A stretch of 58,768 nucleotides of DNA from a virus (Duplodnaviria > Caudoviricetes): positions 1-58,768 of IMG/VR virus record IMGVR_UViG_3300023500_000003; one strand, 5' to 3'. Under the pieces are notes generated by a model. It was not told where the DNA came from. It made no database searches and saw only the letters and a program-made list of their open reading frames with translations. This document shows, piece after piece, positions 28,787 to 52,763 of this stretch (position 1 is the first letter of the stretch; every line of letters begins with the position of its first letter). Made by a program: the position numbers and the translations under genes.

Positions 28787-29700
28787 GGCGGCGTCCGGCA
28801 TTTCATAGCAATATCGCGTCTCCCGACAACAACAGAAGATTTGAAATACTCAGCATCCAGGCTGCAGCCACAGGCGACGTGGAGCAGCTTCTCCGCTGTA
28901 TCCGTGGCTTTGGTTACACCTCTGAAAAACTAGATATCGCGACGATGAAGTACATGGAGAGACTCCTGTCAAAACAGGAGATGGGCAACCACCTTACATG
29001 TTTGCGAGATCTGGGATATGCAGGCATGCGCAAGGTCACACCTAAACAGAGAAGTGACATCGCGTATCACTCGTCAGAAGTCGATGATGCTTTGGATTAC
29101 TGGGACTGTATGAAAACTAAGAACGCAGAACTTTCAACTGCGCTAGAAATACTTAGCATGACCTTAGTGATGGCTCCAAAGCTGCTGAAGAAATACTTAG
29201 CATCAGAGGCTTGCTCAGTTTCAAAGCTGGTGGTGTACGTATACGTTAAGAATACTATGAGGAGGAACAGGGAAATGACCGTAGGTCCCACAGAGACCAG
29301 GAAAGCACAAATGCTGCAAGCACTATGCACGAAGGAACCACTGCTTGCGGCCTTACTACTAGAAACAAAGAACGTGGCTACTTTCATGTTGTTTTGTTCC
29401 ATGTTTTCTAAAAAGACTATCGAGTTCCCAGACGTAGCAGACGTTGAAAAGCTCATCACAGCGGGTGCCACAAAGAGCCCAACAAAGCCAGCAATGCGCT
29501 ACCTTGCAGCAGCTAACAAGATCGAGGAGGGTGCAGAGGGACGGCCCATGATTTTGGAGACGTTCATACGGACGTCAGTTGAAGCGTTGGTAACAATGCA
29601 GGCGGCAACAGGGGACGCCATTGCGAGCAAGGTCGCTGACGCAACACTTGCCGAGCTACTTACAATTTACAGGGCTACAACAAAAGCGGGTACTATGTAA
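28783..29700 (+). CDS. hypothetical helical protein coupled to rpoC
   Basis: 305 aa; its TAA overlaps the ATG of the beta' gene. Confidence 0.75.
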   Translation: MRRRPAFHSNIASPDNNRRFEILSIQAAATGDVEQLLRCIRGFGYTSEKLDIATMKYMERLLSKQEMGNHLTCLRDLGYAGMRKVTPKQRSDIAYHSSEVDDALDYWDCMKTKNAELSTALEILSMTLVMAPKLLKKYLASEACSVSKLVVYVYVKNTMRRNREMTVGPTETRKAQMLQALCTKEPLLAALLLETKNVATFMLFCSMFSKKTIEFPDVADVEKLITAGATKSPTKPAMRYLAAANKIEEGAEGRPMILETFIRTSVEALVTMQAATGDAIASKVADATLAELLTIYRATTKAGTM

Positions 29701-32483
29701 TGCGGATGCTGCTGAAGATAATGACAGCTGAGAGTGTTAGGAGAAAGTCGTGCGGAGAAGTGACTGAGGTCAACGCGTACAAAGGATCTGTTCCTAGGGT
29801 AGGCGGTCTTTCATGCTTGCGGATCTTTGGGGCGACTGTGTCGTACAAGTGTGGGTGTGGTGCACTGGAGGGTGTGCACTACTTAGGGAACATCTGCGAT
29901 CACTGCGGTGTTGAAATAGCGCACAACTCGGTAAGAAGAAAAAGGTGGGGACATATCAACCTACCGATACACGTACTGCAGCCGATCTTGCTTGAACCTT
30001 TAGCTAGGGCACTGAAATTGTCACCAGCAGCTTTGAAAAAGATAGCTGTAGGGAAGGCGCGATTTTCGTTAGTAGATGGCCCTATACCAACAAGTATCGG
30101 AGGCATTCGAATTGTGCTTGATCGTGAAGGTGAAGGAACAGGCCCTGTAGATTTGCGAAGTCTGCTTGAGAAGGTAGAGTGGGAAAACCTTGAGTCGCAA
30201 ATCACGCCGGATATTGCGAAGTGTCTCTTCACGAACTGCGTGGGTGTGCTCCCTGCTGACCTCAGACCCGATTCGACTCCTAACAACGACGCCATAGAGC
30301 TTGACGCTATAACACACAAATACGTGTCAGTATTGAATGTGACTAGGGCCTACACCTCTTTGCACAGAGTGGCACCCTTTGTTCCTAAAATCTTAAAGGA
30401 GCTAGCCTTCGGGAGGATACAGGAAGCTGTTCTAAATCTAGTGTTAGGCAGAGGTACCAGTGTTGCACAGGAGGACCCAGGACTGCTTGACTTGCTAACA
30501 GGAAAATCAGGAATGCTCCGAAAAACTGCTCTTGGCAAACGTGTGGATTTCAGTGGCAGGACTGTACTAGGTGGTGCTCCCACGTCAGCTGTAGACCTGA
30601 TGCAACTGCCACGGCACATGGGTAGAGAGCTGTTCAAGCCTTTCATACTTCGTGAACTTGTAGGACAGCAGGGTTTCTCCTATAGAGAATCCTTGCAACT
30701 GTGGAAAGCAGACGCACAAGAAGCGCGTGTTGCGCTGGAGTCAGTAGCAACCTACAGGCGCGTGTTTGTCAACAGAAACCCTTCCCTTCATAAAGCAAGC
30801 GTTGTAGGACTTCGTGTTGAGATAACCGAGGATCTCTGTATGCACTTGCCACATTACGTGTACGCGGGTTTAGCTGCTGATGCTGACGGCGACACCCTCG
30901 CGATACACGTACCAATGTCTGAGGAAGCAATGCAGGAAACACAAACCTTGTTAGCGCCTGAGTACAACCTTCGAACACAAGCAGCAAAGGACCCTGCATA
31001 CGTACCTAGCCATGAATCACTTGGAGGACTGTACCACGCAACAAGCATCCAAGGGAAACCTGGTCCCAGTGTTTACAGAAGTATTGGAGAGCTTGAGATT
31101 CTATTGGACGCAGGAAAGATCAAGTCAAACACAGCTATAACGTGGAAAGAGATCGGGAAGTCTGCTGTTACTACAACCTTGGGGCGGCTAACAATCGCAG
31201 AAATGTGTGGACCGAAGGTGACTTGTGTTCTGGACAAGCAGAGCGTGAAAGAGTACGTGGATTTGATGGTAGAGTCTCTTGATCCGAAACAAGTACTTAT
31301 CGGGCTGCAGAAGCTGCAGGATTACGGCTACGCGGTAGTAACGAAGGCGGGAGTATCAATCGCCCTGCAAGACCTGAAACCACCTGCGAGCAGGGAGGAA
31401 GTATTCAGCAAAGCTAGGATCGCTGCTGAGGGGGCAAGCGTTGATGAGTTACACAGTATCTGGGAGGAAGCAATCGCCAAGGTCTACGCATCGTGGCAAG
31501 CTGAAGGCGGTGATGACCCATCGCATCCTGCGCACTTCTTTAATATCGCAGCAGGAAGATTGTCCGACATCCAAGTACGTCAGCTGATGGTGGCTAAAGG
31601 GCTACAAGCGAACTACAAAGAGGAGCTGCTCAACTTCGTGATAGAAGGATGCCTGAGTGAAGGGCTGTCAATACCTGATTATCTAAGATCCATGTCAGGG
31701 TCGAGGGCCTCACATATTGCTAAAATTGACGCTACACCGAAATCAGGATACATAGCCAGGAAACTTGTCCACATCGGCAGAGACCTGTACATCACAGGAT
31801 TCGACTGTGGGACTACAAACACATTGGATGTTAAAGAGGGGTATGGGAGGTACGACAGCTGTGGTATACAGATAACCACACACGGTAAAGCAAGTGTGAG
31901 GTCGCCTATCTTCTGTGAGGAAGGACAGGGTGTTTGCATCAAGTGTTACGGTGCTATTGGGAAGCTCCACCTTCTCCCTGTGCTGCATGAGCCTGTAGGC
32001 ATCTGCGCGGGGCAGTCCTTCTCTGAGCGTGCTACACAGAAGTCTTTGCAGAAAAAGCACTCAGGCGGCGCAGCTGGGGCAGAATCAGGGATCAATGCGA
32101 TGGATCACGCAGTTGAGCTGCAGGTCAAGTACAAGCACCTAAAGCTAGGAGAATGGTGTGACAATGCAAAAGAACTGTATTCTGTATTTTCAGCAATCGT
32201 AGGAACGTCAGTGGCTTCACAGCATAGTGAGACCCTTGTGCTTGGCATGAGCGCGTTGAGCCTCCAGGGTGACGAGTACGTGTACTGGGAGAAGTTCCCA
32301 GAAGGTAGGCAACTCCTGGGGGCTACATCTTTGATGCGCAGACACCCTTCATGGCTCCGTTCTATAGGATTTGGGTACGTTAAGGAGAAGTTGATATCAA
32401 CAGTGCTACAAGGGAAGACAACGCAGGAAGTGCCAGGGGAGTATATCTTCACAGGACTTCTCGACGTGGTGAGGGTGGAGTGA
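29700..32483 (+). CDS. rpoC: RNA polymerase beta' subunit, compact and divergent
   Basis: collinear with RpoC: RIFG..YKCGCG..CDHCGVE..RRKRWGHI, GKRVDFSGRTV, NRNPSLH, ADADGD, SGYIARKLV, DCGT..RSP..C..CIKCYG, trigger loop GQSFSERATQKSLQKKHSGG. Confidence 0.93.
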   Translation: MRMLLKIMTAESVRRKSCGEVTEVNAYKGSVPRVGGLSCLRIFGATVSYKCGCGALEGVHYLGNICDHCGVEIAHNSVRRKRWGHINLPIHVLQPILLEPLARALKLSPAALKKIAVGKARFSLVDGPIPTSIGGIRIVLDREGEGTGPVDLRSLLEKVEWENLESQITPDIAKCLFTNCVGVLPADLRPDSTPNNDAIELDAITHKYVSVLNVTRAYTSLHRVAPFVPKILKELAFGRIQEAVLNLVLGRGTSVAQEDPGLLDLLTGKSGMLRKTALGKRVDFSGRTVLGGAPTSAVDLMQLPRHMGRELFKPFILRELVGQQGFSYRESLQLWKADAQEARVALESVATYRRVFVNRNPSLHKASVVGLRVEITEDLCMHLPHYVYAGLAADADGDTLAIHVPMSEEAMQETQTLLAPEYNLRTQAAKDPAYVPSHESLGGLYHATSIQGKPGPSVYRSIGELEILLDAGKIKSNTAITWKEIGKSAVTTTLGRLTIAEMCGPKVTCVLDKQSVKEYVDLMVESLDPKQVLIGLQKLQDYGYAVVTKAGVSIALQDLKPPASREEVFSKARIAAEGASVDELHSIWEEAIAKVYASWQAEGGDDPSHPAHFFNIAAGRLSDIQVRQLMVAKGLQANYKEELLNFVIEGCLSEGLSIPDYLRSMSGSRASHIAKIDATPKSGYIARKLVHIGRDLYITGFDCGTTNTLDVKEGYGRYDSCGIQITTHGKASVRSPIFCEEGQGVCIKCYGAIGKLHLLPVLHEPVGICAGQSFSERATQKSLQKKHSGGAAGAESGINAMDHAVELQVKYKHLKLGEWCDNAKELYSVFSAIVGTSVASQHSETLVLGMSALSLQGDEYVYWEKFPEGRQLLGATSLMRRHPSWLRSIGFGYVKEKLISTVLQGKTTQEVPGEYIFTGLLDVVRVE

Positions 32484-35208: not shown

Positions 35209-35520
35209 ATGAACGAAGCAGAGAATAAATACGAGAATGCACTGCGCGACATGGCTGACCCAAGCGATCTGACCAACATGTTTGGATATGAAGCGGGATT
35301 GAAGCTAATGACAATGACAAGAGAGCAGAGATGTCGGATGTTCGCCCACGCAGTAAAAGCCGCAGAGGACTCTGATTTAGATGAGATCATACAATGTATG
35401 TTCCACCCACGCAATTACGATGCGGAAGTAGGATCTCGGACGGGTAGAGTGCTGGCCCGCTATATGCGACCCTTCATTGTAGCTGACTATCAGCTGTATG
35501 CGGCCAGCCATTGTAGCTGA
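35209..35520 (+). CDS. hypothetical protein
   Basis: GAGGTG RBS; coupled to a 23-aa leader ORF at 35141-35212. Confidence 0.6.
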   Translation: MNEAENKYENALRDMADPSDLTNMFGYEAGLKLMTMTREQRCRMFAHAVKAAEDSDLDEIIQCMFHPRNYDAEVGSRTGRVLARYMRPFIVADYQLYAASHCS

Positions 35521-35842
35521 CTACGAAAAGATCATGCAGCGTGACTATGATGACGACATTGACCATAAGGCAAATCAGGCCGACCAAGACATGCCGAGGT
35601 ACAAAGAAGAACGATTGATGGGGGATGAATTGGTTATTAAATATAGCTGTATAGCAGGAAGCTTAGTGGTAGTAGCAGGAATCTTACTGCTACTAAGCAA
35701 CCTGTACCCGTATCAACCCAAGCAGGAGACAGAATACCTAGAGCCATACACACCTGAGGCTGTCTGTCTAACATGGATTCAGGCTCAGCAGAAGTATGGT
35801 GCGCTTGGTATGGAGTTCATGATTAACCAACGATGCGAATAG
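35498..35842 (+). CDS. hypothetical membrane protein
   Basis: one hydrophobic segment; begins inside a 34-nt-period duplication. Confidence 0.5.
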   Translation: MRPAIVADYEKIMQRDYDDDIDHKANQADQDMPRYKEERLMGDELVIKYSCIAGSLVVVAGILLLLSNLYPYQPKQETEYLEPYTPEAVCLTWIQAQQKYGALGMEFMINQRCE

Positions 35843-35853
35843 GAGATAATATT

Positions 35854-35994
35854 ATGATGCTAGTTGCGTTAACTCATGGTGAATGTCTTGAAGAAATGGA
35901 CAAGCTGATTGAAGCCGCCGCTGATGCGCTGGTGAGTAAGAACGACAGCCAACAGGGGTTGAAAGATGCGCTACAACGTCACCGTGATAAGTAG
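35854..35994 (+). pseudogene. relic 5' end of an MTase paralogue fused to unrelated sequence
   Basis: MLVALTHGECLEEMDKLIE vs MLVELIHGECLAEMDKLID at 5367; AGGAG RBS. Confidence 0.7.
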
Positions 35995-36090
35995 GAACAC
36001 AACAATACTCGGCCTCGGCATATTGATTGCTATGGCCGGGTTGGTTTCTGTGATTTGGTGGCCGATTATGAAGATTAAGGAGTTGATGAA

Positions 36091-36408
36091 ATGATGAACT
36101 GGCGAACAGATAAGCCACCCCAGGATGAAGGAACATTCATTGCAATGGTTGGGTACCCATGGCCAACAATCCTTATCTGGAATGAGTTTGATGAGGATTA
36201 TGCTTACGTTGAGATTGGCGCACAAGAATTGCAAGAATCACCGAATGCGCCTGTAAAAATGGACACATGGTTTGAAAGTGAACATTGCCGTGAAGATGAA
36301 ATTACACATTGGATGCCGATGCCCTCCCTGCCCCTATCATCTAAGATCAAGCGCAATGCGGAGAAGCTGAAAGCGAGGGATGACATGAAAAACGGCGCGA
36401 GGGCATGA
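36091..36408 (+). CDS. DUF551-family protein
   Basis: W...PP....I ... ITHWMPMPSLP. Confidence 0.75.
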   Translation: MMNWRTDKPPQDEGTFIAMVGYPWPTILIWNEFDEDYAYVEIGAQELQESPNAPVKMDTWFESEHCREDEITHWMPMPSLPLSSKIKRNAEKLKARDDMKNGARA

Positions 36409-38003
36409 ACCATGGAAAAGACTTTACCACTATGGAGCTCTTTTCGGGAGCTGGCGGCGGAATCCTCGCATCCAGAATCCTCGGACATAAGCCGCTTGTC
36501 GCAATCGAATGGGATGCCTACTGCTGCCAAGTCCTTAGAGAACGAGTTGCCGAGGGATGTTTCACTGGAATGCAAGTGCGCGAAGGGGACATCAGACTGC
36601 AAGATACATCCGAGTGGCATGGAAGAATATCTTGCATCAATGCGGGTTTCCCATGCACAGATATTAGCGTCGCCGGAAATCAGGCAGGCATTGGAGAAGG
36701 TACGCGGTCTGGACTTTACAAGGAAGTCCTTAGGATTGCCGATGAGGTACGACCTGAATACATCTTCCTGGAAAATGTCGCAGCAATCGTTACTGGAGCC
36801 AGCGGAGAATGGCTCAGAACCATCATTGGCGACCTTGCCGAGCGCGGGTATAGTGCGTGTTGGTGTACGCTCTCGGCGGCAGAAATAGGGGCGGCTCATA
36901 AACGTAATCGCTGGTGGTTGCTGGCATGGAGAGATAATGGTGAAAAGAAAATTAGCAAGTCAACGAAGATGCAAGAATTGCAGCAGGACATTTCAACCAA
37001 GAGCAGACTTGGTGAGTCAAGGGATGGGTATTTTTTGCGGCATGGAATGCTGTGCAGAATCAAAACGAGGCAGCAAATTAAGCGATTCGGAAATAGTTGC
37101 GATGTATCAAACAGGGTTGACTATGAAGCAGGTTGCGCAGAAAACTGGGATGGGTTGGAAGTCGGTACAGAGAAGGGTTCACGCTGCTGGTGTTGCAATC
37201 AACCCACACAAACGAGCAAAAGCAGAAAGGCCAAGTACGAGAGGAAGAAAGGTCTATCAGTGGGTGGCAGAAAAGAAGTATGGGAGAAGAACAAAAAAAG
37301 GGGAGTGCATTCACCATTTAAACCTGGATTGCACAGACAACGATCAGAGCAATCTGCTTATGATGGGGCTACGAGATCATGCGAAAGTACACCATCAGCT
37401 ACAGGGAGTAGTCTCAAATCTGATAAAAAGTGGGGTGATAGTGTTCAACGAGAAGAAAATGAGGTACGAGAATGCGACAGATTCGTAAATGTTTATCCGC
37501 TGCCCAAGTTGGTGCTGCCCACAAGCGAAACAGGTGGTGGCTCTTGGGCTACCCCAAACACGATGGATGTTCTGCCGCCGAAATCGGAGAAATCCCTACA
37601 CAGGGAAATGACGGTAACAAGGCCGGGCAGGAGCAGGCCAGCAAACCTCCGGGATCAGGTCAGCAATATGGACATGTGGGCTACCCCTCAAGCGAGGGAT
37701 TATCGGACAGGAGACAATCCAGAAGGCAAGCGTGCGAAAAGAAAGATAGAACAGGGTTGGACTCAGAATCTAAACGATCAGGTGAGGATGTGGCCAACGC
37801 CAAGCGCCTCGGACAATCGGGACAGAGGGAACGCAGCAACACCTGCGATACACAGAAGAATAGCGAAAGGAAAGCAAGTTATGTTATCCATGATGGTGAG
37901 CGAGACGAGCGACAGATTGAACCCCAAATTTGTGGAATGGTTGATGATGTGGCCGATAGGGTACACAATATGCAGGAAGTTCAAGAAGAAACGGAGGAAA
38001 TAA
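36405..38003 (+). CDS. C5-cytosine DNA methyltransferase, motifs I-VIII fused to W[AP]TP repeats and motif IX-like segment
   Basis: ELFSGAGG, GFPC, ENV, HKRNRWW; WATP/WATP/WPTP repeats; LNPKFVEWLMMWPIGY; no motif X in this frame. Confidence 0.88.
   Translation: MNHGKDFTTMELFSGAGGGILASRILGHKPLVAIEWDAYCCQVLRERVAEGCFTGMQVREGDIRLQDTSEWHGRISCINAGFPCTDISVAGNQAGIGEGTRSGLYKEVLRIADEVRPEYIFLENVAAIVTGASGEWLRTIIGDLAERGYSACWCTLSAAEIGAAHKRNRWWLLAWRDNGEKKISKSTKMQELQQDISTKSRLGESRDGYFLRHGMLCRIKTRQQIKRFGNSCDVSNRVDYEAGCAENWDGLEVGTEKGSRCWCCNQPTQTSKSRKAKYERKKGLSVGGRKEVWEKNKKRGVHSPFKPGLHRQRSEQSAYDGATRSCESTPSATGSSLKSDKKWGDSVQREENEVRECDRFVNVYPLPKLVLPTSETGGGSWATPNTMDVLPPKSEKSLHREMTVTRPGRSRPANLRDQVSNMDMWATPQARDYRTGDNPEGKRAKRKIEQGWTQNLNDQVRMWPTPSASDNRDRGNAATPAIHRRIAKGKQVMLSMMVSETSDRLNPKFVEWLMMWPIGYTICRKFKKKRRK
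36412..36888 (+). CDS. alternative-frame N-terminal part of MTase 'beta' polypeptide, truncated by HNH insertion
   Basis: open +1 frame inside MTase; SSWKMSQQSLL..SLATLPSAG; ends at the insertion point. Confidence 0.45.
   Translation: MEKTLPLWSSFRELAAESSHPESSDISRLSQSNGMPTAAKSLENELPRDVSLECKCAKGTSDCKIHPSGMEEYLASMRVSHAQILASPEIRQALEKVRGLDFTRKSLGLPMRYDLNTSSWKMSQQSLLEPAENGSEPSLATLPSAGIVRVGVRSRRQK
36937..37488 (+). mobile_element. HNH homing endonuclease nested in MTase
   Basis: CKNC..FC..CC, HTH, IHHLNLDCTDNDQSNL; GGAGAG RBS; flanked by recoded duplicate of motif VIII. Confidence 0.85.
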
Positions 38004-38608
38004 ATGCCTGCCAAGAAGCCGACACCAGAAAAGCATTGTGCGACGTGCAAAGAGAAAATGGAAAGGAAGTGGATAAATACCAGATGGGAGAGCATGAACA
38101 TATTTCTGAAACGCAAGTATTGCGACAGGGTATGCATGGCAAAAGGACAAATGGTAGTGAGTCCAAGCAAAGGTGCCCTACACAAGAGGGCGAGGAAGTT
38201 TATAGGCCAACAGTGCGAAGCGTGTGCAACACTGGAGAGGTTGCAGGTTCACCACAAGGACAGGAATGCGAAGAACAATTCAAAAGCAAACCTGATGACT
38301 CTGTGTGTAGCCTGTCACACGAAATGGCATTGGGAGAACGACAAGATGGAGGGGTACAAGGAGAAGAAGTGCTCCCTTTGCGACACGATAACAAACCATC
38401 TTCGGAGGGGCATGTGTCAGAAGCACTACCAGAGGTGGAAGAGAAGCCAGCCTTCTTATGGAACGATATTGAAGCGCAAGTCGGGCGCACGACAACAGAA
38501 ACAGAAAACAGAGCCAGTAGATTAAGGGCGCTTGGGAACGGACAGGTGCCATTGCAGGCGGCAGTCGCGTTCAGTTTCTTATTGGAAGCGAGTGAGACAA
38601 TCAAATGA
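37472..38608 (+). CDS. C5-MTase C-terminal polypeptide (second motif VIII copy + motif X)
   Basis: CLSAAQVGAAHKRNRWW ... RLRALGNGQVP; GAGGT RBS upstream of ATG 37472. Confidence 0.75.
   Translation: MRQIRKCLSAAQVGAAHKRNRWWLLGYPKHDGCSAAEIGEIPTQGNDGNKAGQEQASKPPGSGQQYGHVGYPSSEGLSDRRQSRRQACEKKDRTGLDSESKRSGEDVANAKRLGQSGQRERSNTCDTQKNSERKASYVIHDGERDERQIEPQICGMVDDVADRVHNMQEVQEETEEINACQEADTRKALCDVQRENGKEVDKYQMGEHEHISETQVLRQGMHGKRTNGSESKQRCPTQEGEEVYRPTVRSVCNTGEVAGSPQGQECEEQFKSKPDDSVCSLSHEMALGERQDGGVQGEEVLPLRHDNKPSSEGHVSEALPEVEEKPAFLWNDIEAQVGRTTTETENRASRLRALGNGQVPLQAAVAFSFLLEASETIK
38004..38525 (+). mobile_element. second HNH endonuclease nested in MTase C-part
   Basis: CEAC..LQVHHKDRNAKNNSKANLMTLCVACH; extra CxxC modules; GGAGG RBS. 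Confidence 0.85.
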
Positions 38609-38922
38609 AACACACAGAAGATGAAAGGCGCGAGATTGCCGAGTTTAGCAATGACACCACCAGCGATGCGGCGATGCGGAAGTATGGCATTGGGACAGTG
38701 AAGATGGCCGCGTACAGAAAAGAGTTTGGCATCGGCAGAAAGGCCAAGGTGTCGAAGTACAGAGGGGCAATAAATGAGGTGATGAACGGACGGCTATCAG
38801 TAACAGCGTCAGCACGGCAGTTCGGCGTGAGCGTGGGCAAACTGCACGACAAGGTTAATGCTGTGCGAGAGGGCGAAATAAAAGGCGTGCATCCTGCGCT
38901 AACGTTGTGGAAGGGTGGTTGA
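38605..38922 (+). CDS. helix-turn-helix protein
   Basis: AMRKYGIG; LSVTASARQFGVSVGKLHDKV (psq-like HTH). Confidence 0.65.
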   Translation: MKHTEDERREIAEFSNDTTSDAAMRKYGIGTVKMAAYRKEFGIGRKAKVSKYRGAINEVMNGRLSVTASARQFGVSVGKLHDKVNAVREGEIKGVHPALTLWKGG

Positions 38923-38958
38923 AGATGAATGAACAGGTCAAGTTAAAGGAGAATACTG

Positions 38959-39408
38959 ATGGGTGAAAGTGTGATTGATTTTGTAAGAGATGGAGAAGTA
39001 GGGGACAAGGTTCACAGCCTACGTTTTGGTGATGGATACATCACTCTTATCAGCAGGGGTAATTGCATCATAGAGGCAGAGTTTGAGGCGGGCATAAAGG
39101 GTTTTCGTACTTGTGGTCGTGTAGCCCCCGTAGACAAACACCCATCACTAAGCTGGGGACACAAGGAAGATTACTCCATTGACCAAGGTACGCCTCCTAG
39201 CCGTGAGTCTGGTACGCTAGTCTTTGATGGTACACCTGTTTGGGCATGGGTTTGTGAGAAGCCAGATGACGTACTGAAAAGATTTAGTAGATTTGTGGTT
39301 GCCTCCACGAGTGACGGGCAATTCATTGCGATTTCCGACATGGTAGACAACATTAACTGTGAAGGCGTTACGGTTTGGGAATATGCTTGGGAGATAGAAG
39401 ATGAATAA
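38959..39408 (+). CDS. hypothetical protein
   Basis: AAGGAG RBS; VGDKV.SLRFG.G.I pattern. Confidence 0.7.
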   Translation: MGESVIDFVRDGEVGDKVHSLRFGDGYITLISRGNCIIEAEFEAGIKGFRTCGRVAPVDKHPSLSWGHKEDYSIDQGTPPSRESGTLVFDGTPVWAWVCEKPDDVLKRFSRFVVASTSDGQFIAISDMVDNINCEGVTVWEYAWEIEDE

Positions 39409-39534
39409 AGAACAGAATTAAAGCTATGGGCTTAAATTATACGACAGTTTATAGAATGCTATCAGATGGATATAAGCCGTTTGAGCCGCAAGCATGATAT
39501 ATTGGCGATATGGATAAAGATAGGGGATGGTTTG

Positions 39535-40227
39535 ATGAAATATGAAACAACCGGTGAAGTTTTTAAGTCCGGTCGTATAACACTAATAAACGACGACTGC
39601 ATGAATATATTAAAGCAAACACCTGACAATTACTATCACCTTTCTTGCGTCGATCCGCCGTTTGGGCTAGGCGAAAAACTAACGAGTGGGGGAACTTGGG
39701 CAGGAAAATACACATCTTCTGATAGTGCGTGGGATATTGCTCCGGGGAAGCCATATTTTGATGAGCTTAGGAGAGCGGCTGAAAATTGGATAGTATGGGG
39801 GGGAAATAATTTCACGCAGTTTTTGCCGCCAGCAAGATGTTTTTTAATATGGGACAAAGTTGCGAAAATGCAAACAATGGCAGACAGTGAACTGGCACTA
39901 ACATCTTTTGATAAAAACGCAAAAACTTTTTCTCATGTGCGTAATACAAGTGAAAGAAGAATACATTTATGCCAAAAACCTGTCAAACTCTATGAATGGC
40001 TCCTAACAAACTACGCTAACAAGGGTGATAGGATACTGGACACGCACTTGGGCTCAGGCTCAAGCGCAATCGCTGCGCATAATCTTGGGTTTGATTTCAC
40101 AGGAGTTGAGCTTGATCAAGACTATTTCAAGGCAGCAATCGCGCGGCTAGAGAATCATCAGAAACAGCCGACACTTTTTAGCCCACCTCTAACCAAGCCA
40201 GAACCCGAACAGGGGGCGCTATTATGA
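39535..40227 (+). CDS. DNA methyltransferase, N6-A/N4-C, beta class
   Basis: VDPPF, WGGN.F, IWDK, IH.CQKPV.LYEWLL, DTHLGSGSS, GVELD. Confidence 0.92.
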   Translation: MKYETTGEVFKSGRITLINDDCMNILKQTPDNYYHLSCVDPPFGLGEKLTSGGTWAGKYTSSDSAWDIAPGKPYFDELRRAAENWIVWGGNNFTQFLPPARCFLIWDKVAKMQTMADSELALTSFDKNAKTFSHVRNTSERRIHLCQKPVKLYEWLLTNYANKGDRILDTHLGSGSSAIAAHNLGFDFTGVELDQDYFKAAIARLENHQKQPTLFSPPLTKPEPEQGALL

Positions 40228-48617: not shown

Positions 48618-50363
48618 CTACTCCGGTAGATATAGTAATCCTTTCATGTTAGGAAATAATCTTTCAGTGGTCATCAACCTCTCACCCGTGAGCTCCTGCG
48701 GATGTGTTATAATAGTCGGGTGGATGAATATCATGAGATTGACTTTATTAGTCTTGTTCTCAGTTTGTGCAAACAGTCTCCCTGCAAAAGGGATGTCACC
48801 AAGGAGGGGAATCCCCGCTGTAGTGTCGGTATCAGAATTTTGTACCAACCCACCCAATACTAGTATCCCGCCATCCTCAGCTACTGCTATTGTTTTTAAT
48901 GACCTCTTGTTGGTTATGATATCAGAGGCTATTGTGGAAGGGGAGATGGAGCTGATTTCTTGCTCGATAATTAGTTCAATATCTCCATTTCCTAATGCAC
49001 GAGGGGTGACTACAAGAGACAGTCCCACATCTTTTCTTTCTATTGTTTGGAAAGGATTAGCACCCTGAGTGCCCCCCTGACTTCCAGTAACGAATGGAAC
49101 ATTCTGGCCTACGGAGAGTCTTGCTTCTTCATTACTCAAGACAAGCACGGACGGTACCGATAAGATGTTGGCCTCGGTATTAACTTTCAAAGCCTTCAAA
49201 ATACCGCCAAAAGATAGCGGGTTACCAGTGAACAATCCCACTACTAGACTTTTTCCAGTATCTAGGAGCTGATCTCCAATGGCAACATTCCCTGCACCGA
49301 CCCCTCCGCCAGCTGTAGGGGAGTTGTTTAGAACCCAGTCAATTCCAAACGCCAGTGAAGTATCTCCCGCTACTTCAACTATAATCATCTCTACTAGTAT
49401 CTGCTGCCTGGGTGTATCTAATTTGGATATTAGCAATCTAATCTTTTTCTTGCTGCCTTCTGGTCCGGACAGGACTATGGCGTTCCGGATCTTGTCTACC
49501 GCTATCTCCACTTCTTTGGTAAGGGAGGGCAATGTTGATAGGACGGACAGTACATTATCAGCTTTAGTATGCTCGACCAGAATAAGCTCTACTCGAGATA
49601 AGGATACCGGAGTAGGAGGAAGGTCTACCGCTTTCATCATAGTTACTGCATTTGTAACTGCTGATCTAGCACCTACCAATATTAAAGTATTGTTTACAGT
49701 ATTAGCAATCACCCTCACTTCGTTTTCTTGGTAGAGGGTTTTCACAGATAAAGCTGCTACATCTGCATTCACATTCTTCAATTGAATGACCCTAATAGTA
49801 TTAGCGGAAGACGAGTCAAGTACTTGCAGCAGTGAATACATCTTCTTAATGTTTACGCCGCTATCAGTAATGATGATCATTCCTAACCCCAATGGAGTTA
49901 TAAGTTTCCCATCACGGGATAGGAGAGGTGTGATTATAGCCGCCGCCTTTGTTGGCGAGATGTATAGTAGATTATAAATGGAGGTTACTATATTCTCGCC
50001 TGAGATACCGCCAATACCACCATTTGCTGCAATTCTCGGAACTATCTTCAGGTATCCATTATTCTCAACCGACGTCAGACGGTTCATCTCAAGCACTGAA
50101 TCTAGGAGCAAGCGAAGTTGAGGTTTGGACATACCATTAGTCACATGTACGGTTACTTCCCCTGAAACCTGCTTATCCAGTAGTACGTTCAGATTCAGTA
50201 TTTTTGACACTAGAAGGATAAAACCTTTCAACTCCACCTTGTCAACATTTAGAGTTATCAGATCTGATTTTACCACGCCGGCACCCTCTGCAGAATGCCC
50301 AAAGGTTATCAGTCCTAATAGTACTAGAAAGACTGCTAGTACTTTGGTCGCTCTGTCCATCAT
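48618..50363 (-). CDS. gspD: GspD-type outer-membrane secretin
   Basis: signal peptide; N0 domain (FI..VS..L..N.LLD..VSG.VTV); three N repeats; LDTPRQQILVE.IIVEV; NILSVPS..L.NEEA...VGQNVPF; IERKDVG..L.VTP; GIPLLGDIP..GRLF; NLMIFIHPTII. Confidence 0.93.
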   Translation of the reverse strand: MMDRATKVLAVFLVLLGLITFGHSAEGAGVVKSDLITLNVDKVELKGFILLVSKILNLNVLLDKQVSGEVTVHVTNGMSKPQLRLLLDSVLEMNRLTSVENNGYLKIVPRIAANGGIGGISGENIVTSIYNLLYISPTKAAAIITPLLSRDGKLITPLGLGMIIITDSGVNIKKMYSLLQVLDSSSANTIRVIQLKNVNADVAALSVKTLYQENEVRVIANTVNNTLILVGARSAVTNAVTMMKAVDLPPTPVSLSRVELILVEHTKADNVLSVLSTLPSLTKEVEIAVDKIRNAIVLSGPEGSKKKIRLLISKLDTPRQQILVEMIIVEVAGDTSLAFGIDWVLNNSPTAGGGVGAGNVAIGDQLLDTGKSLVVGLFTGNPLSFGGILKALKVNTEANILSVPSVLVLSNEEARLSVGQNVPFVTGSQGGTQGANPFQTIERKDVGLSLVVTPRALGNGDIELIIEQEISSISPSTIASDIITNKRSLKTIAVAEDGGILVLGGLVQNSDTDTTAGIPLLGDIPFAGRLFAQTENKTNKVNLMIFIHPTIITHPQELTGERLMTTERLFPNMKGLLYLPE

Positions 50364-50399: not shown

Positions 50400-52763
50400 T
50401 TAGAATTTCTTCATCTCGAATACGCTATTTACGAAGAAGTCACCCAGTATGCCAGTGAACCTGTACCTGGAAGTGCCATCCGACCAATACAGCGTTTGGT
50501 AATCACCGCCAATGGTGATAGCTATTTGATTGTTCCAAACAGGGGTAAACGTAGAGCCAATAGTCCCTACACGGGGCTGTACTCCCGTTCCTAGTGACCT
50601 ATGATGATAAGTAACACCCTCAGATATGGTAATAGTGCCGCCTGCTCCATCGTTGTAGCGCCACTCGAAGTTTTTGAGGCCTGCCTGAGTAAAACGGAAC
50701 TCATAGTTATCAATCAGTGTTACCACTACTTCCGCATCAGCAACAGCATATACGGAACTTCCCGAAGTACTTACAGGAACAGCCCTATTCCACACGCCGC
50801 CACTGAATATCATCAGTAGCGCATTAGTGGTATCGTACCAAGCATCGCCATTAGCAGGATTGATTGGAGCAGTAGCTTGAGTCACCGCCCCTACTCCTTG
50901 TGCGCCTGCTGCTCCTGATAAACCTTGAATACCTGCAGAGCCAGTTAATCCTTGGGGACCTGTTAAACCTATACTTCCATCTGCGCCTGGTGTACCTGAC
51001 ACTCCTTGTGTGCCTGGCACCCCTTGCGCTCCTGCGGCTCCTACTGAAACTATCGAGAGTGTGCTACCAGTAACAGTTATGTTATCCCCGGCTGAGGAAG
51101 TGAGTACAGATGTGATGACATCACCTGCTGCCACGGTCAGTACTCCTTTCGCTAGTACAAAGGTAGGAGAATTTACTGTTGCTCCGCCCCTTCCTGTGAT
51201 AGTGGATGCTACCCCATTCACGAATATGGTCACCAGTTTATTGTTCGAAGATGCTCTGATAACAACCGAAGACGAGAGAAAGTAAGTACCCGCGCTCACA
51301 ATAGTCAATGAGTTAGTTGTAGTGCTTGCTGTAATACCAGAGGATAATCCTGTGATAGTACCAAACACGAGAGTGTGAGGATATACAGAAACCACAGTGT
51401 CGCCTGAATTTGACATTGACCCATATGCTGCAGCTGCGGAGATGTTTGATCCAGTTGCTCCTACTGCACCTTGAATACCAGCGACACCTTGAACACCCTG
51501 TGATCCCGTTAACCCTGTTGGTCCAGTAGAGCCAGTAGCACCTTGAATACCCTGTGACCCCGTTGGTCCAGTAATACCTTGAATACCCTGTGATCCGGTA
51601 ATGCCCACCAAAGACGAATTACTTACCCACCCTGCTATTGCTTTAGGACCAAACATGGTAGATGTTGTAGTATTTAGATAGAAGTCTCCTAATACTCCGT
51701 CTGCTATGAGGGGATCTGCGCTCCCATTGAGCACAGTGTTTCCGGGAGTTCCAGTAGTACCTGCTAAGCCTTGAATACCGGCAGCTCCCGTTAAACCTTG
51801 AATACCGGCAGCTCCCGTTAAACCTTGAATACCGTCAGCTCCCGTTAAACCCTGAATACCGGTAGCTCCTGCTAAGCCTTGAATACCGGCAGCTCCCGTT
51901 AAACCCTGAATACCGTCAGCTCCTGTAGCACCTGTTAAACCTGTTGGTCCTGCTAAGCCTTGAACACCATCAGCACCTGTTAAACCTTGAGTGCCAGCTT
52001 GTGCTAGTGGTAACCATATAGCAGCGTCCGACGAGGGGATAGTTCCTGTGTTAGCCTGTATTGCGGAGAAGCTTCCACCCGCATGCGAAACAACGTCGAG
52101 GGTTGAGTAAGCAAGGGAAGTATTCCACACGCCTCTCAGCACTAACGTAGCTCCGTCGGTACCATCAACGCCGTCAACTCCTGCTACTCCAGCAACACCT
52201 TGAAGACCGAATGCTCCAGCCTGTCCGACAATCCCATCCTTCCCATCTTTTCCGTCTATGCCATTAGCACCAGGTTCTCCATCTTTCCCATCTTTCCCGT
52301 CGACCCCGTCAGTACCAGTTGTGCCGTCTACGCCGTCAGTACCAGTTGTTCCATCCATGCCGTCAGTACCAGCAGTACCAGTTGTACCGGATCCTGACAT
52401 AGTGACTGTAGGGAGTAAGCGGTCTGACTCCTTCTGTGCTTCGGATAGCAGAGCATCGGGAATTACAGCCTCTCTAACGACCTGGAAAGTATCTGCAGAT
52501 AAGCCCAAGGTGGTGGGGGATACCACAGCCGTGGCTCCTCCTCCTGTTGCAACTGCACCTACGGCCATCAGAATTTTAGCGTTCTCCATAACGAAGTCGT
52601 AGGCTTTACTTGCGCCAGACTTCACGCCATCGAATACAGATGTTACGAGGTTTTGCTGCACCTCAGTATGTAAATCTTTTGCACCGTCAGAAAGTTGAGA
52701 GGCTATTTCTGCCGCTTCATCTTTCAGCAAGCTGGCAGCTTTTTCTGTTATCTCATCCGTCAT
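50400..52763 (-). CDS. collagen-like fibre protein
   Basis: several (GXY)n tracts; beta-rich BclA/C1q-like domain; C-terminal domain shared with 52857-54200; hydrophobic N-terminal segment. Confidence 0.85.
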   Translation of the reverse strand: MTDEITEKAASLLKDEAAEIASQLSDGAKDLHTEVQQNLVTSVFDGVKSGASKAYDFVMENAKILMAVGAVATGGGATAVVSPTTLGLSADTFQVVREAVIPDALLSEAQKESDRLLPTVTMSGSGTTGTAGTDGMDGTTGTDGVDGTTGTDGVDGKDGKDGEPGANGIDGKDGKDGIVGQAGAFGLQGVAGVAGVDGVDGTDGATLVLRGVWNTSLAYSTLDVVSHAGGSFSAIQANTGTIPSSDAAIWLPLAQAGTQGLTGADGVQGLAGPTGLTGATGADGIQGLTGAAGIQGLAGATGIQGLTGADGIQGLTGAAGIQGLTGAAGIQGLAGTTGTPGNTVLNGSADPLIADGVLGDFYLNTTTSTMFGPKAIAGWVSNSSLVGITGSQGIQGITGPTGSQGIQGATGSTGPTGLTGSQGVQGVAGIQGAVGATGSNISAAAAYGSMSNSGDTVVSVYPHTLVFGTITGLSSGITASTTTNSLTIVSAGTYFLSSSVVIRASSNNKLVTIFVNGVASTITGRGGATVNSPTFVLAKGVLTVAAGDVITSVLTSSAGDNITVTGSTLSIVSVGAAGAQGVPGTQGVSGTPGADGSIGLTGPQGLTGSAGIQGLSGAAGAQGVGAVTQATAPINPANGDAWYDTTNALLMIFSGGVWNRAVPVSTSGSSVYAVADAEVVVTLIDNYEFRFTQAGLKNFEWRYNDGAGGTITISEGVTYHHRSLGTGVQPRVGTIGSTFTPVWNNQIAITIGGDYQTLYWSDGTSRYRFTGILGDFFVNSVFEMKKF
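51762..51990 (-). repeat. 27-nt tandem repeats encoding GIQGL[TA]GA[ADT]
   Basis: GCTCCCGTTAAACCTTGAATACCGGCA-like units repeated. Confidence 0.8.

What the first reader, a model, noticed from the sequence alone, without database searches (positions are those of the whole stretch)
36405..38608. 2.2 kb of near-continuous dual coding: frame-rewired C5 methyltransferase hosting two HNH genes
Five overlapping + strand ORFs each carry recognisable motifs. The ancestral layout appears to be M.EcoHK31I-like: an alpha chain with motifs I-VIII and X, and a motif IX beta chain in the +1 frame. A 623-nt insertion (2 mod 3) shifted the frames. Alpha-N now reads stop-free through HNH1 into the beta C-part (W[AP]TP repeats and motif IX), while motif X is on a separate ORF with its own RBS (37472) that reads stop-free through HNH2. 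Both HNH genes lie in the local beta frame. Staying open across 552 and 522 nt of foreign ORF suggests selection for a functional two-chain enzyme without splicing.
Basis: partly seen in the sequence, partly recalled or inferred. Interest (0 to 1): 0.8.

Follow-up and report, generated by a model that had tools for sequence, protein, structure and literature searches.

The report
Methylase gene hosting two hidden endonucleases

Summary
Window 36405-38608 holds five overlapping + strand ORFs, and about 94% of the bases lie in two ORFs.

- **Host gene.** It is a phage C5 cytosine methyltransferase. [quoted passage not shown] Beta sits in the +1 frame in 54 of 56 related loci that gave a beta hit.
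- **Insertions.** Two HNH genes have been inserted: a 623-nt element at motif VIII (2 mod 3) and a 483-nt element between motifs IX and X (0 mod 3). Alleles without each element occur in the same metagenomes.
- **Open host frames.** The host frames stay stop-free through both HNH ORFs, with 0 of 20000 synonymous resamplings reaching zero stops for either. HNH2 relatives are nested the same way in 11 other methylase genes, including a cultured Staphylococcus phage. Free-standing relatives have 7-20 stops in that frame.
- **Splicing.** No intron or intein signature was found.
- **Likely products.** An alphaN-beta fusion plus a separate chain carrying motif X. Activity is untested.
- **Novelty.** Not categorically new. 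Hidden out-of-frame HNH genes in phage methylases were published in 2025 (the ShiLan domain), and overlapped two-chain methylases in 1995 (M.EcoHK31I). New here are the double nesting, the dual-coded host and the frame swap.

The parts
36405..36929 (+). alphaN: the catalytic part of the C5 methyltransferase (motifs I, IV, VI, VIII). It is the first 175 codons of ORF A (36405-38003).
   Evidence: PF00145 at E 5e-37, residues 7-226. It is 40-77% identical to the alphaN part of 29 viral loci.
36412..36888 (+). betaN: the +1-frame ORF across alphaN, the cut-off front of the family's full-length +1 ORF ('beta-long'). It ends at a TAG at 36886, inside the upstream motif VIII copy.
   Evidence: ORF list. 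It aligns with the N-parts of database proteins P0143, P0144, P0155 and P0164. In the alphaN region of 77 loci there are 62 +1-frame stops against 495 +2-frame stops, in 10769 codons.
36870..37492 (+). HNH1 element, 623 nt (2 mod 3). It holds a diverged copy (U, 36870-36929) of the motif VIII segment, a short spacer with an SD-like GGAGAG, and the HNH1 ORF.
   Evidence: U against D: 36 of 60 nt and 16 of 20 aa identical. Contigs of runs X1 and X2 join 36847 to 37499 with 28 or 31 other letters in between, a net loss of 623 nt.
36937..37488 (+). HNH1: an HNH endonuclease gene (zinc ribbon, HTH, HNH_3-like core) in the +1 frame relative to alphaN.
   Evidence: Pfam HNH_3 at 6.4e-5, below the cut-off. 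phrog_15471 'HNH endonuclease' at 7.5e-13. Its -1 frame has 0 stops against 11-12 expected, with 0 of 20000 resamplings at zero.
37472..38608 (+). alphaC ORF (378 aa). It runs: second motif VIII copy (D, 37493-37552), linker (the alternative frame of beta), read-through of HNH2, then motif X. Its ATG lies 7 nt after a GAGG, and its stop overlaps the next gene's ATG.
   Evidence: Aligns with the C-halves of alpha homologues. phrog_363 'DNA methyltransferase' for residues 267-376.
37533..38003 (+). betaC: three W[AP]TP repeats and motif IX, here the C-terminal part of ORF A.
   Evidence: 4767 library proteins match at E<=1e-3. phrog_1008 'DNA methyltransferase' at 2.7e-16. Alignment A3.
37991..38473 (+). 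HNH2 element, 483 nt (0 mod 3; the boundary is ambiguous by one GAA codon). It brings an SD (GGAGGA), a TAA that ends beta, the HNH2 ATG directly after it, and at its 3' end a diverged copy of the upstream flank.
   Evidence: Comparison with HNH-free alpha homologues. Contigs of X1-X4 that match from 38471 onward are preceded by the HNH-free flank (table 7).
38004..38525 (+). HNH2: an HNH endonuclease gene in the beta frame. Its last ~17 codons and its stop are the host's own beta tail.
   Evidence: 21 database homologues, with the Cys/His/Asn columns invariant. phrog_1271 at 6.1e-11. The HNH-free locus L002 has the same tail in its beta frame.
38474..38608 (+). Alpha tail carrying motif X.
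   Evidence: Alignment A4: 43-79% identity to 26 loci. In the complex model it docks on alphaN and on motif IX.

Best explanation
**What it is.** The region is one phage C5 cytosine methyltransferase locus. Its family uses two overlapping frames. Alpha carries motifs I-VIII, a dispensable linker and motif X. A +1-frame chain, beta, carries the WxTP repeats and motif IX. The locus has been invaded by two homing-type HNH endonuclease genes that lie out of frame inside it. These are 'hidden HNH' elements of the kind described for the ShiLan domain.

**Shown:**
- the anatomy;
- the two insertions and their exact sizes;
- element-free alleles in the same communities;
- the absence of intron or intein signs;
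- the non-random openness of the host frames through both HNH ORFs;
- for HNH2, the same nesting in 11 other methylase genes.

**Inferred mechanism.** Selection keeps the host frames open because the methylase is translated through the elements without splicing.

The HNH2 element is 0 mod 3. It sits just after beta's functional end, inside alpha's linker. Alpha therefore only gains about 161 extra linker residues before motif X. HNH2 is translated by coupling to the beta stop (TAA directly followed by ATG, with an SD upstream).

The HNH1 element is 2 mod 3 and sits at motif VIII. It swaps the downstream partners. Ribosomes that start at the alpha ATG now make alphaN (I-VIII), a ~200-residue linker, then beta (repeats and IX). 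Motif X comes from a separate ORF starting at 37472. That ORF may be fed by ribosomes that read the truncated +1 leader and then HNH1.

The active enzyme would be ORF A plus the motif-X chain.
For: **Anatomy and frames:**

**Family layout:**
- Alpha homologues of 293-420 aa match the window's frame 2 between motifs VIII and X.
- Of 80 viral loci, 56 gave a beta hit, and 54 of those are in the +1 frame. 59 gave a tail hit, and 54 of those are in the alphaN frame.

**Open frames:**
- HNH1, HNH2 and beta each have 0 stops in the -1 frame, against 7-12 expected.
- Each gave 0 of 20000 resamplings with zero stops.
- The longest such run in 43 other genes is 102 codons.

**HNH2 family:**
- 11 further nested copies were found: L009, L082-L088 and L163-L165.
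- All have 0 host-frame stops. Own-codon shuffles give means of 3.2-10.8 and P(0) <= 0.014 each.
- Four free-standing relatives have 7-20 stops.
- In the cultured Staphylococcus phage CUB-EPI_14, the annotated 601-aa methyltransferase CDS runs through an unannotated HNH ORF.
- IME-SA4 has the HNH-free homologue.

**Population evidence:**
- Contigs identical to the window cover both elements in X1, which is the possible source.
- Contigs of a second study hold HNH1 with both junctions (X2: 4 differences, 0 gaps).
- Contigs of that second study also hold HNH2 (X3: 23 differences, 0 gaps). The 10 listed changes make no frame-2 stop.
- HNH1-free joints in X1 and X2 show a net loss of 623 nt.

**No RNA family** in the region or in six nested loci.

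**Complex model** of alphaN + betaC + motif-X tail:
- Score 0.84, against 0.01 for the best of 3 controls.
- That mark was reached by 58 of 80 solved complexes and 2 of 110 mismatched pairs.
- The runs share at least 72% of their contacts, and the partner's pLDDT is at least 79.
- Single-chain C5 methyltransferases have solved structures, so this pass may only show likeness to them.

**Natural precedents for rewiring:** L070 has alphaN and beta in one frame with motif X apart. L067, L080, L009 and L083 have motifs IX and X in one frame.
Against: - There are no expression, proteomic or methylation data. No listed run that holds the stretch is on record as RNA.
- HNH1 has no detectable relatives, so conservation of its open -1 frame cannot be tested. 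The second-study copy is about 99% identical, which is too close to be informative.
- The HNH1 element breaks alpha (2 mod 3) and truncates the +1 ORF with a TAG. That is what an inactivating insertion would also look like.
- A 200-residue alternative-frame linker, and motif X delivered at the end of a 378-aa mostly low-complexity chain, are unproven as workable.
- The Pfam HNH hits are below the curated cut-offs.
- The complex pass may come from memory of solved single-chain enzymes.
Confidence: 0.7

Rival explanations
1. The methyltransferase is dead. The HNH1 element, or a later 1-nt indel at its end, broke alpha and the +1 ORF. The open frames are then inherited: an element pre-adapted to nesting, originally 0 mod 3, and too recent to have decayed. 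Only the endonuclease genes would be under selection.
For: - The insertion is 2 mod 3, and there is a TAG in the +1 frame at 36886.
- HNH1 has no relatives against which to test conservation.
- The ShiLan paper's discussion (PMC11855218) notes that close relatives of phage ShiLan lack the methylase, so such methylases are not essential.
- The window encodes two other DNA methylases of the N6_N4 type.
Against: - Every needed frame is open at 0 of 20000 resamplings.
- All catalytic motifs of alphaN are intact (invariant columns).
- The motif-X ORF opens with GAGG plus ATG within 12 nt of the last frame-2 stop.
- Its stop overlaps the next gene's ATG.
- The same arrangement, with no indel at the junction, stands in contigs of a second study.
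- L070 shows the same topology without an HNH gene.
Confidence: 0.2
2. The elements are removed by splicing (group I or II intron, or intein), which restores a contiguous gene or protein.
For: HNH genes are common passengers of phage group I introns (established knowledge). Both elements sit at conserved motifs.
Against: - No Rfam match was found even at E<=10 in 35500-39500, and none at the gathering thresholds in six nested loci.
- The HNH ORFs fill 552 of 623 nt and 470 of 483 nt of the elements, which leaves no room for a ribozyme core.
- Introns do not need an open host frame.
- In the host frame the HNH2 element neither begins with Cys/Ser nor ends with His-Asn followed by Cys/Ser/Thr (read).
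- HNH1 shifts the frame, which excludes an intein.
- The same conclusion was reached for the ShiLan element (PMC11855218, results).
Confidence: 0.03
3. A programmed frameshift or hop at the end of the HNH1 element takes alpha ribosomes from frame 0 into frame 2. This would give one long alpha chain holding motifs I-VIII, both read-through linkers and motif X. Beta would then be started separately.
For: Both frames are open on either side of the junction. The family tolerates long linkers: alpha homologues range from 293 to 515 aa.
Against: - No slippery site or stimulatory structure was sought or seen.
- There is no Rfam frameshift element.
- The motif-X ORF has its own SD and ATG.
- Frame 0 stays open for a further 500 nt into beta, which a shift would make needless.
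Confidence: 0.05

Closest known systems
ShiLan-domain 'hidden' out-of-frame HNH endonuclease insertions in actinobacteriophage DNA methylases (Arsenault, Gosselin and Gogarten 2025, PMC11855218; introduction, results, discussion and legends read)
   Same: - The insertion sits in a phage methylase gene and is absent from close homologues.
- There is no stop in the host frame.
- An alternative frame encodes an HNH endonuclease with zinc fingers.
- There is no intron or intein signature.
- A short diverged copy of the flank lies at the edge of the element.
- The distribution is patchy, suggesting homing.
   Different: - The frame relation differs: ShiLan's HNH is in the host's third frame, whereas here both are in the second (+1) frame.
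- Here there are two elements in one gene.
- Here the host is itself dual-coded.
- One element is 2 mod 3 and swaps the host frames instead of simply lengthening the protein.
- HNH2 starts directly after a host-frame stop and has an SD, which gives a simple route to translation. The paper leaves that question open and suggests leaderless initiation.
- No mycobacteriophage appeared among the tblastn hits of HNH1 or HNH2 at E<=1e-5, so these are different HNH lineages. ShiLan's own sequence was not compared.
M.EcoHK31I, a two-chain C5 methyltransferase whose beta chain is encoded in another frame inside alpha (described in the introduction of PMC2836561; the original 1995 paper is recalled, not read)
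   Same: Alpha holds motifs I-VIII and X. Beta lies inside alpha in another frame and holds motif IX.
   Different: - In EcoHK31I the TRD is on alpha and beta is small. Here the TRD-like WxTP repeats are on beta, and alpha's middle is a low-complexity linker.
- In this family the +1 frame is open over the whole gene, often from an ATG 4 nt after the alpha start.
- Sequence relatedness to EcoHK31I was not tested.
Naturally or artificially split C5 methyltransferases. Examples: the 'C5 methyltransferase alpha subunit | beta subunit' annotation in Streptococcus phage MM1 (listing); M.AquI (recalled); and fragment complementation of M.SssI and M.HhaI (PMC3404938 and PMC3439449, abstracts in the listing only)
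   Same: Motif-bearing fragments on separate chains can assemble into an enzyme. This is what the window's ORF A plus motif-X chain would need to do.
   Different: Those splits lie between adjacent genes or at engineered break points. Here the pieces overlap each other and two endonuclease genes.
Genes split or flanked by free-standing homing endonuclease genes. Examples: phage Aeh1 nrdA split by mobE, and fungal mitochondrial endonuclease ORFs that carry a duplicate of the host gene's end (both recalled, not read)
   Same: A mobile endonuclease gene sits inside a conserved gene that stays functional. A diverged duplicate of the flanking host segment comes with the element.
   Different: Those elements terminate the host ORF or replace its end. 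Here the host frame reads through the endonuclease gene.

Membership tests
C5 cytosine DNA methyltransferase (PF00145) | Motifs I (FxGxG), IV (PC), VI (ENV) and VIII in the catalytic domain | tested here: met
   PF00145 at E 5e-37, profile positions 1-213 of 324. The F13, G15, G17, P83, C84, E123, N124, R167 and R169 columns are invariant in 30 sequences.
C5 cytosine DNA methyltransferase (PF00145) | Motifs IX and X present | tested here: met
   Both are present but on other ORFs and frames. The motif IX-like segment lies at the end of ORF A (alignment A3). Motif X lies at the end of ORF 37472-38608 (alignment A4; phrog_363).
C5 cytosine DNA methyltransferase (PF00145) | Transfers a methyl group to cytosine C5 | not testable with these tools
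   No assay was possible.
M.EcoHK31I-type overlapped two-chain methyltransferase | Alpha holds I-VIII and X in one frame, and beta holds motif IX in another frame inside alpha | tested here: met
   Met for the family: 43 of 80 loci show alphaN and tail in one frame with beta in the +1 frame. In the window it is met only for the part after the HNH1 element.
M.EcoHK31I-type overlapped two-chain methyltransferase | TRD carried by alpha (PMC2836561, introduction) | tested here: not met
   Alpha's middle part is poorly conserved and low in hydrophobic residues (0.22). The conserved WxTP repeats lie on beta.
M.EcoHK31I-type overlapped two-chain methyltransferase | Both chains are needed for activity | not testable with these tools
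   There is only a model: the complex prediction passed.
Hidden out-of-frame HNH insertion in a phage methylase (ShiLan type) | Insertion absent from close homologues | tested here: met
   HNH-free homologues and HNH-free alleles in the same runs.
Hidden out-of-frame HNH insertion in a phage methylase (ShiLan type) | Host frame has no stop through the insertion and continues in frame | tested here: met
   HNH2: 483 nt, 0 mod 3, with 0 stops. HNH1: 0 stops, but it is 2 mod 3, so the host frame continues into the other host chain. That part is a departure from the type.
Hidden out-of-frame HNH insertion in a phage methylase (ShiLan type) | An alternative frame encodes an HNH endonuclease with zinc-binding motifs | tested here: met
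   The A2 profile hits the HNH part of IscB in the PDB at 5e-5.
Hidden out-of-frame HNH insertion in a phage methylase (ShiLan type) | No self-splicing intron or intein | tested here: met
   Rfam scans. Intein end residues are absent (read).
Hidden out-of-frame HNH insertion in a phage methylase (ShiLan type) | Sequence relatedness to the ShiLan or Pacc40 HNH | not tested
   The ShiLan sequence was not fetched. No mycobacteriophage hits appeared at E<=1e-5.
Group I intron with an HNH ORF | Ribozyme core (P3-P9) flanking or overlapping the ORF | tested here: not met
   No Rfam match up to E 10. Only 71 and 13 non-ORF bases remain in the two elements.

The most novel reading that the evidence does not exclude
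The whole methyltransferase family is a fully dual-coded gene pair. Two ORFs of about 300 codons start 4-7 nt apart from one ribosome-binding site (often ATGAATG) and run in parallel. Alpha makes the catalytic core, and the +1 chain makes the target-recognition part.

HNH homing genes have specialised to nest in the +1 frame. They take over its ribosomes at a stop-start junction and keep the other frame open, which makes stretches of triple-use DNA.

Because both frames are translated, an insertion of 2 mod 3 does not kill the gene. It merely swaps which downstream module each ribosome stream makes, as in this window. That would make such genes unusually robust to invasion and free to re-wire their subunits (variants L067, L070, L080).
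Probability: 0.4. Interest if true: 0.85.

Novelty: new variant of a known kind. Interest (0 to 1): 0.68.

Why it matters
**A third way for homing endonucleases to live inside genes.** Homing endonucleases were thought to survive inside conserved genes only as introns, as inteins, or by splitting the gene. Out-of-frame nesting with host read-through is a third solution, described only in 2025 and only for mycobacteriophages.

**What this locus and its relatives add:**
- The strategy is widespread. Twelve methylase genes carry it, from a Staphylococcus phage to MAG contigs titled Actinomycetes, Pirellulales and Dehalococcoidales.
- It is under measurable selection.
- In the two-frame methylases it has a simple translation route: a stop-start junction in the second host frame.

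**Annotation.** Standard annotation misses these genes. In GenBank record ON325435.2 the HNH ORF is unannotated.

**A test bed for overlapping genes.** The family-wide overlap of two long ORFs, with dual starts, was not found in print in searches. If those ORFs are really translated, this would be one of the longest same-strand overlaps in phages. It would be a natural system for studying how overlapping genes tolerate insertions.

Tried and rejected
- **DNA searches.** Searches of the phage collection with the region, near and distant modes, found no match.
- **Single-protein locus searches.** ORF A, HNH2 and HNH1 in viral contigs, and HNH1 in metagenome contigs, found no confirmed relative.
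- **HNH1 protein searches.** The word-based protein search found only HNH1 itself. The PDB sequence search found nothing. tblastn against phages gave one 27% hit, annotated as a homing endonuclease, which I did not follow up.
- **Expression.** No listed holder of the stretch is on record as RNA, so nothing can be said on expression.
- **AlphaFold2 of a full-length +1 chain** (L057, alignment A6). Mean pLDDT was 52.9 and pTM 0.23, and the first 72 residues were below 50. There is no confident fold, so the model cannot say whether the leader is a domain or a spacer.
- **Mixed alignment for folding ORF A** (A7). The beta rows looked misaligned, with identities dropping from 57-59% to 30-32%, so I did not fold it.
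- **Promoter and terminator scan.** 4 promoter-like sites against 3.5 expected, and 1 terminator-like site against 3.1 expected. This is chance level.
- **HNH1 against HNH2.** They are alike only in the HNH core (29% over 28 aa), so I treat them as separate lineages.
- **Explanations rejected.**
  - Compositional bias: the region is purine-rich, but the third frame has 26 stops over the same stretch.
  - Assembly error at the HNH1 junction: independent contigs of a second study agree.


Full report
**1. Observation**

The window is a whole IMG/VR virus record of 58768 bases. CheckV rates it 41% complete. Between 36405 and 38608 the + strand holds five ORFs:
- ORF A, 36405-38003 (532 aa)
- a +1-frame ORF, 36412-36888 (158 aa)
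- HNH1, 36937-37488 (183 aa)
- an ORF at 37472-38608 (378 aa)
- HNH2, 38004-38525 (173 aa)

Frames, named by position mod 3:
- Frame 0 has no stop from 36381 to 38001.
- Frame 2 has none from 37460 to 38606.
- Frame 1 has 26 stops after 37486.

Family assignments:
- Pfam assigns PF00145 to ORF A residues 7-226 (E 5e-37), covering motifs I-VIII only.
- Pfam gives both HNH ORFs HNH-family hits just under the curated cut-offs.
- PHROGs gives HNH endonuclease families at 7.5e-13 and 6.1e-11.
- PHROGs also gives 'DNA methyltransferase' families for the WxTP part and for the tail of the 378-aa ORF.

The open frames are not a matter of base composition. The region is purine-rich. Even so, the 43 other long genes of the window have 0.067 stops per codon in the -1 frame, and their longest open run is 102 codons. 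Synonymous resampling of HNH1, HNH2 and the WxTP part expects 7-12 stops in each. It gave none in 0 of 20000 trials each.

**2. The host gene belongs to a two-frame family**

A protein search with the first 175 residues found 777 proteins at E<=1e-3 among 1617 candidates.
- The 14 that I read are single ORFs of 293-419 aa.
- Each has motifs I-VIII, a poorly conserved low-complexity middle, and motif X.
- That middle matches the window's frame 2 translation, not frame 0.

I then examined 80 viral loci by tblastn with the window's pieces.
- 56 gave a hit to the WxTP/motif IX part. In 54 of them it lies in the +1 frame relative to the catalytic part.
- 59 gave a hit to the motif-X tail. In 54 of them it is in the catalytic frame.
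- 43 loci show the full pattern.

It differs from M.EcoHK31I as described in the introduction of PMC2836561. There alpha carries the TRD. Here the conserved repeats are on beta.

There is more. In the catalytic region of 77 loci the +1 frame has 62 stops in 10769 codons, against 495 in the +2 frame. A conservative own-codon shuffle over 74 loci expects 278 stops against 116 seen. In 17 of 77 loci the first +1-frame ATG lies exactly 4 nt after the alpha start, typically as ATGAATG. In 33 of 77 it lies within -11 to +19 nt.

Gene callers have produced such full-length +1 proteins. Examples are P0143, P0144, P0155, P0164 and P0167, among 4767 library hits to the beta part. Their N-terminal likeness can be explained entirely by conservation of alpha in the other frame. 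A fold prediction gave no confident structure. I therefore treat the front of the +1 chain as a leader of unknown role.

Where motif X lies in the beta frame instead (L067, L080, L009), alpha stops soon after motif VIII. This fits frames being kept open only where they are needed.

**3. The two insertions**

The motif VIII segment occurs twice.
- U is at 36870-36929 in frame 0. D is at 37493-37552 in frame 2. They are 623 nt apart.
- They share 16 of 20 residues but only 36 of 60 bases.
- 16 of the 24 differences are at third codon positions. So this is not a recent duplication.
- HNH1 fills the gap almost exactly.
- D also encodes the +1 chain in frame 0, as in P0144. U has a TAG in that frame.

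Contigs of runs X1 and X2 join 36847 to 37499 with 28 or 31 other letters in between. That is an HNH1-free allele lacking exactly 623 nt.

Compared with HNH-free homologues, and with contigs of X1-X4 that match from 38471 onward after an HNH-free flank, the second element is 37991-38473. It is 483 nt, 0 mod 3, with the boundary ambiguous by one codon.
- It begins with GGAGGA, then a TAA that ends beta, then directly the HNH2 ATG.
- It ends with a diverged copy of the upstream flank.
- HNH2's last ~17 codons are the host's own beta tail. The HNH-free locus L002 has the same tail in its beta frame.

Both elements are supported by contigs.
- Contigs identical to the window span both elements in X1, the possible source.
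- Contigs of a second study hold HNH1 with both junctions (4 differences, no gap).
- Contigs of that study also hold HNH2 (23 differences, no gap). The 10 listed changes make no stop in frame 2.

Leaving out the possible source, this is one independent study.

**4. HNH2 belongs to a lineage that lives nested in methylase genes**

It has 21 database homologues with invariant Cys/His/Asn columns.

I found 11 further full-length copies lying inside a C5 methyltransferase gene:
- L009 and L083-L088 (viral contigs);
- L163-L165 (MAG contigs titled Actinomycetes, Pirellulales and Dehalococcoidales);
- L082, the cultured Staphylococcus phage CUB-EPI_14.

In CUB-EPI_14 the annotated 601-aa methyltransferase CDS runs through an unannotated 160-aa HNH ORF. 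IME-SA4 has the HNH-free 426-aa homologue, 75% identical where aligned.

In all 12 copies, the window included, the host frame is the HNH frame minus one and has no stop. Own-codon shuffles give means of 3.2-10.8 stops and P(0) <= 0.014 each. Four free-standing relatives (L089, L143, L161 and the HNH gene after the L057 methylase) have 7-20 stops, as expected.

The site is between motifs IX and X in the 11 two-frame or IX-X-fused hosts. In the single-chain Staphylococcus enzyme it is just before motif IX.

The HNH ATG follows the beta-frame stop within 0-15 nt in the same frame in W, L085-L088, L163 and L164.

**5. HNH1**

HNH1 is an orphan. There are no relatives by word search, in viral or metagenome contigs, or in the PDB. 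There is one weak phage hit. It is alike to HNH2 only in the HNH core. Evidence for selection on its open -1 frame therefore rests on resampling alone.

**6. Not splicing**

- Rfam found nothing up to E 10 in 35500-39500, and nothing at gathering thresholds in six nested loci.
- The elements have only 71 and 13 bases outside the HNH ORFs.
- The host-frame ends of the HNH2 element lack intein end residues.
- HNH1 shifts the frame.

**7. How it most likely works**

Shown: the anatomy, the selection on frames, and the polymorphism for both elements.

Inferred:
- HNH2 sits where it harms neither chain. It lies after beta's functional end and inside alpha's linker. It is translated by stop-start coupling to beta.
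- The 2 mod 3 HNH1 element swaps partners. The alpha start now yields I-VIII, a ~200-residue polar linker (hydrophobic fraction 0.27), then the repeats and motif IX.
- Motif X is made from 37472. That ATG has a GAGG 7 nt upstream, and it lies 17 nt before the HNH1 stop.
- The truncated +1 leader ends 49 nt before the HNH1 ATG. So one ribosome stream could run leader, HNH1, then the motif-X chain.

A complex model of alphaN, betaC and the 47-residue tail scored 0.84, against 0.01 for the best of 3 controls.
- That mark was reached by 58 of 80 solved complexes and 2 of 110 mismatched pairs.
- At least 72% of contacts were shared between runs, and the partner's pLDDT was at least 79.
- The tail sits on motifs I, VI and VIII and on motif IX.

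Solved single-chain C5 methyltransferases may explain this pass, so it shows likeness, not binding. L070 has the same topology without any HNH gene.

**8. What is known, and novelty**

Hidden out-of-frame HNH genes in phage methylases were published in 2025 for the ShiLan domain and Pacc40 (PMC11855218; introduction, results, discussion and legends read).
- The published cases show no host-frame stops, no intron or intein, and a flank copy at the element's edge.
- The authors leave open how the HNH is translated.
- The frame relation differs: ShiLan uses the third frame, while here it is the second.

Overlapped two-chain methyltransferases are known from M.EcoHK31I.

I found no paper on a family-wide full-length overlap or on nested HNH genes in such hosts. 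Supplements and repositories were not seen.

The finding is therefore a new variant of a known kind. It has two elements in one gene, a host that is already dual-coded, a frame swap, and a broad non-actinobacteriophage lineage with a plain translation route.

**9. Limits**

- There are no expression or activity data.
- HNH1 conservation is untestable at present.
- Viral contigs may carry assembly errors, which could explain some single deviants (L033, L064, L070).
- The alpha start sites were set by a simple rule.

Noticed in passing
L090:651-3650 (host ORF) and L090:1462-2376 (HNH ORF): A 999-aa terminase-large-subunit-like ORF appears by eye to carry an intein. Inside it, in the +1 frame, lies a 304-aa HNH ORF that is a weak HNH2 relative. 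The host frame stays open through it: 0 stops against 3.8 expected, P(0) 0.004. Out-of-frame nesting may therefore also occur inside inteins.
   Followed up: partly
L002-L081 (e.g. L057:2992-3958); window 36405-36888: There is a family-wide full-length +1 ORF over the catalytic half of the methyltransferase, often starting 4 nt after the alpha start (ATGAATG). Database proteins beginning MSWL.. are this +1 frame.
   Followed up: partly
L067, L080, L070, L064, L033: These relatives show other wirings of the same modules. L067 and L080 have motifs IX and X in one frame, with alpha stopping after motif VIII. L070 has the catalytic part and beta in one frame, with motif X apart. L064 and L033 show single frame changes. 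These may be real variants or assembly errors.
   Followed up: partly
L085: just after the HNH ORF, about 2505-2600: A second, diverged copy of the motif IX segment follows the nested HNH gene in the HNH frame. This is another flank duplication like U/D in the window.
   Followed up: no
P0146, P0150 (database proteins): These are hybrid gene calls that follow the alpha frame up to motif IV and the +1 frame afterwards. P0146 has motifs IX and X in the same frame. They could be an indel, a sequencing error or a real variant.
   Followed up: no
window 5367-6404 (+) and 39466-40227 (+): There are two further DNA methylase genes of the N6_N4 type (PF01555, 8.8e-31 and 8.8e-14). The record therefore encodes three methylases.
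   Followed up: no
window 48618-50363 (-), 50400-52763 (-), 29700-32483 (+): The virus record holds a GspD-type secretin gene (PF00263, 1.1e-44), a collagen-repeat protein, and a multisubunit RNA polymerase beta'-like gene (Rpb1 domains). The secretin is unusual for a tailed-phage contig.
   Followed up: no
window 36204-36899 (-): A 231-aa antisense ORF lies across the DUF551 gene end and the catalytic half of the methyltransferase. Two more antisense ORFs of 135-137 aa lie over HNH2. They are probably by-products of stop depletion on the sense strand.
   Followed up: no
L082:2501-2983 (GenBank ON325435.2, 37788-38270): The HNH ORF inside the CUB-EPI_14 methyltransferase CDS is not annotated in the public record.
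   Followed up: yes
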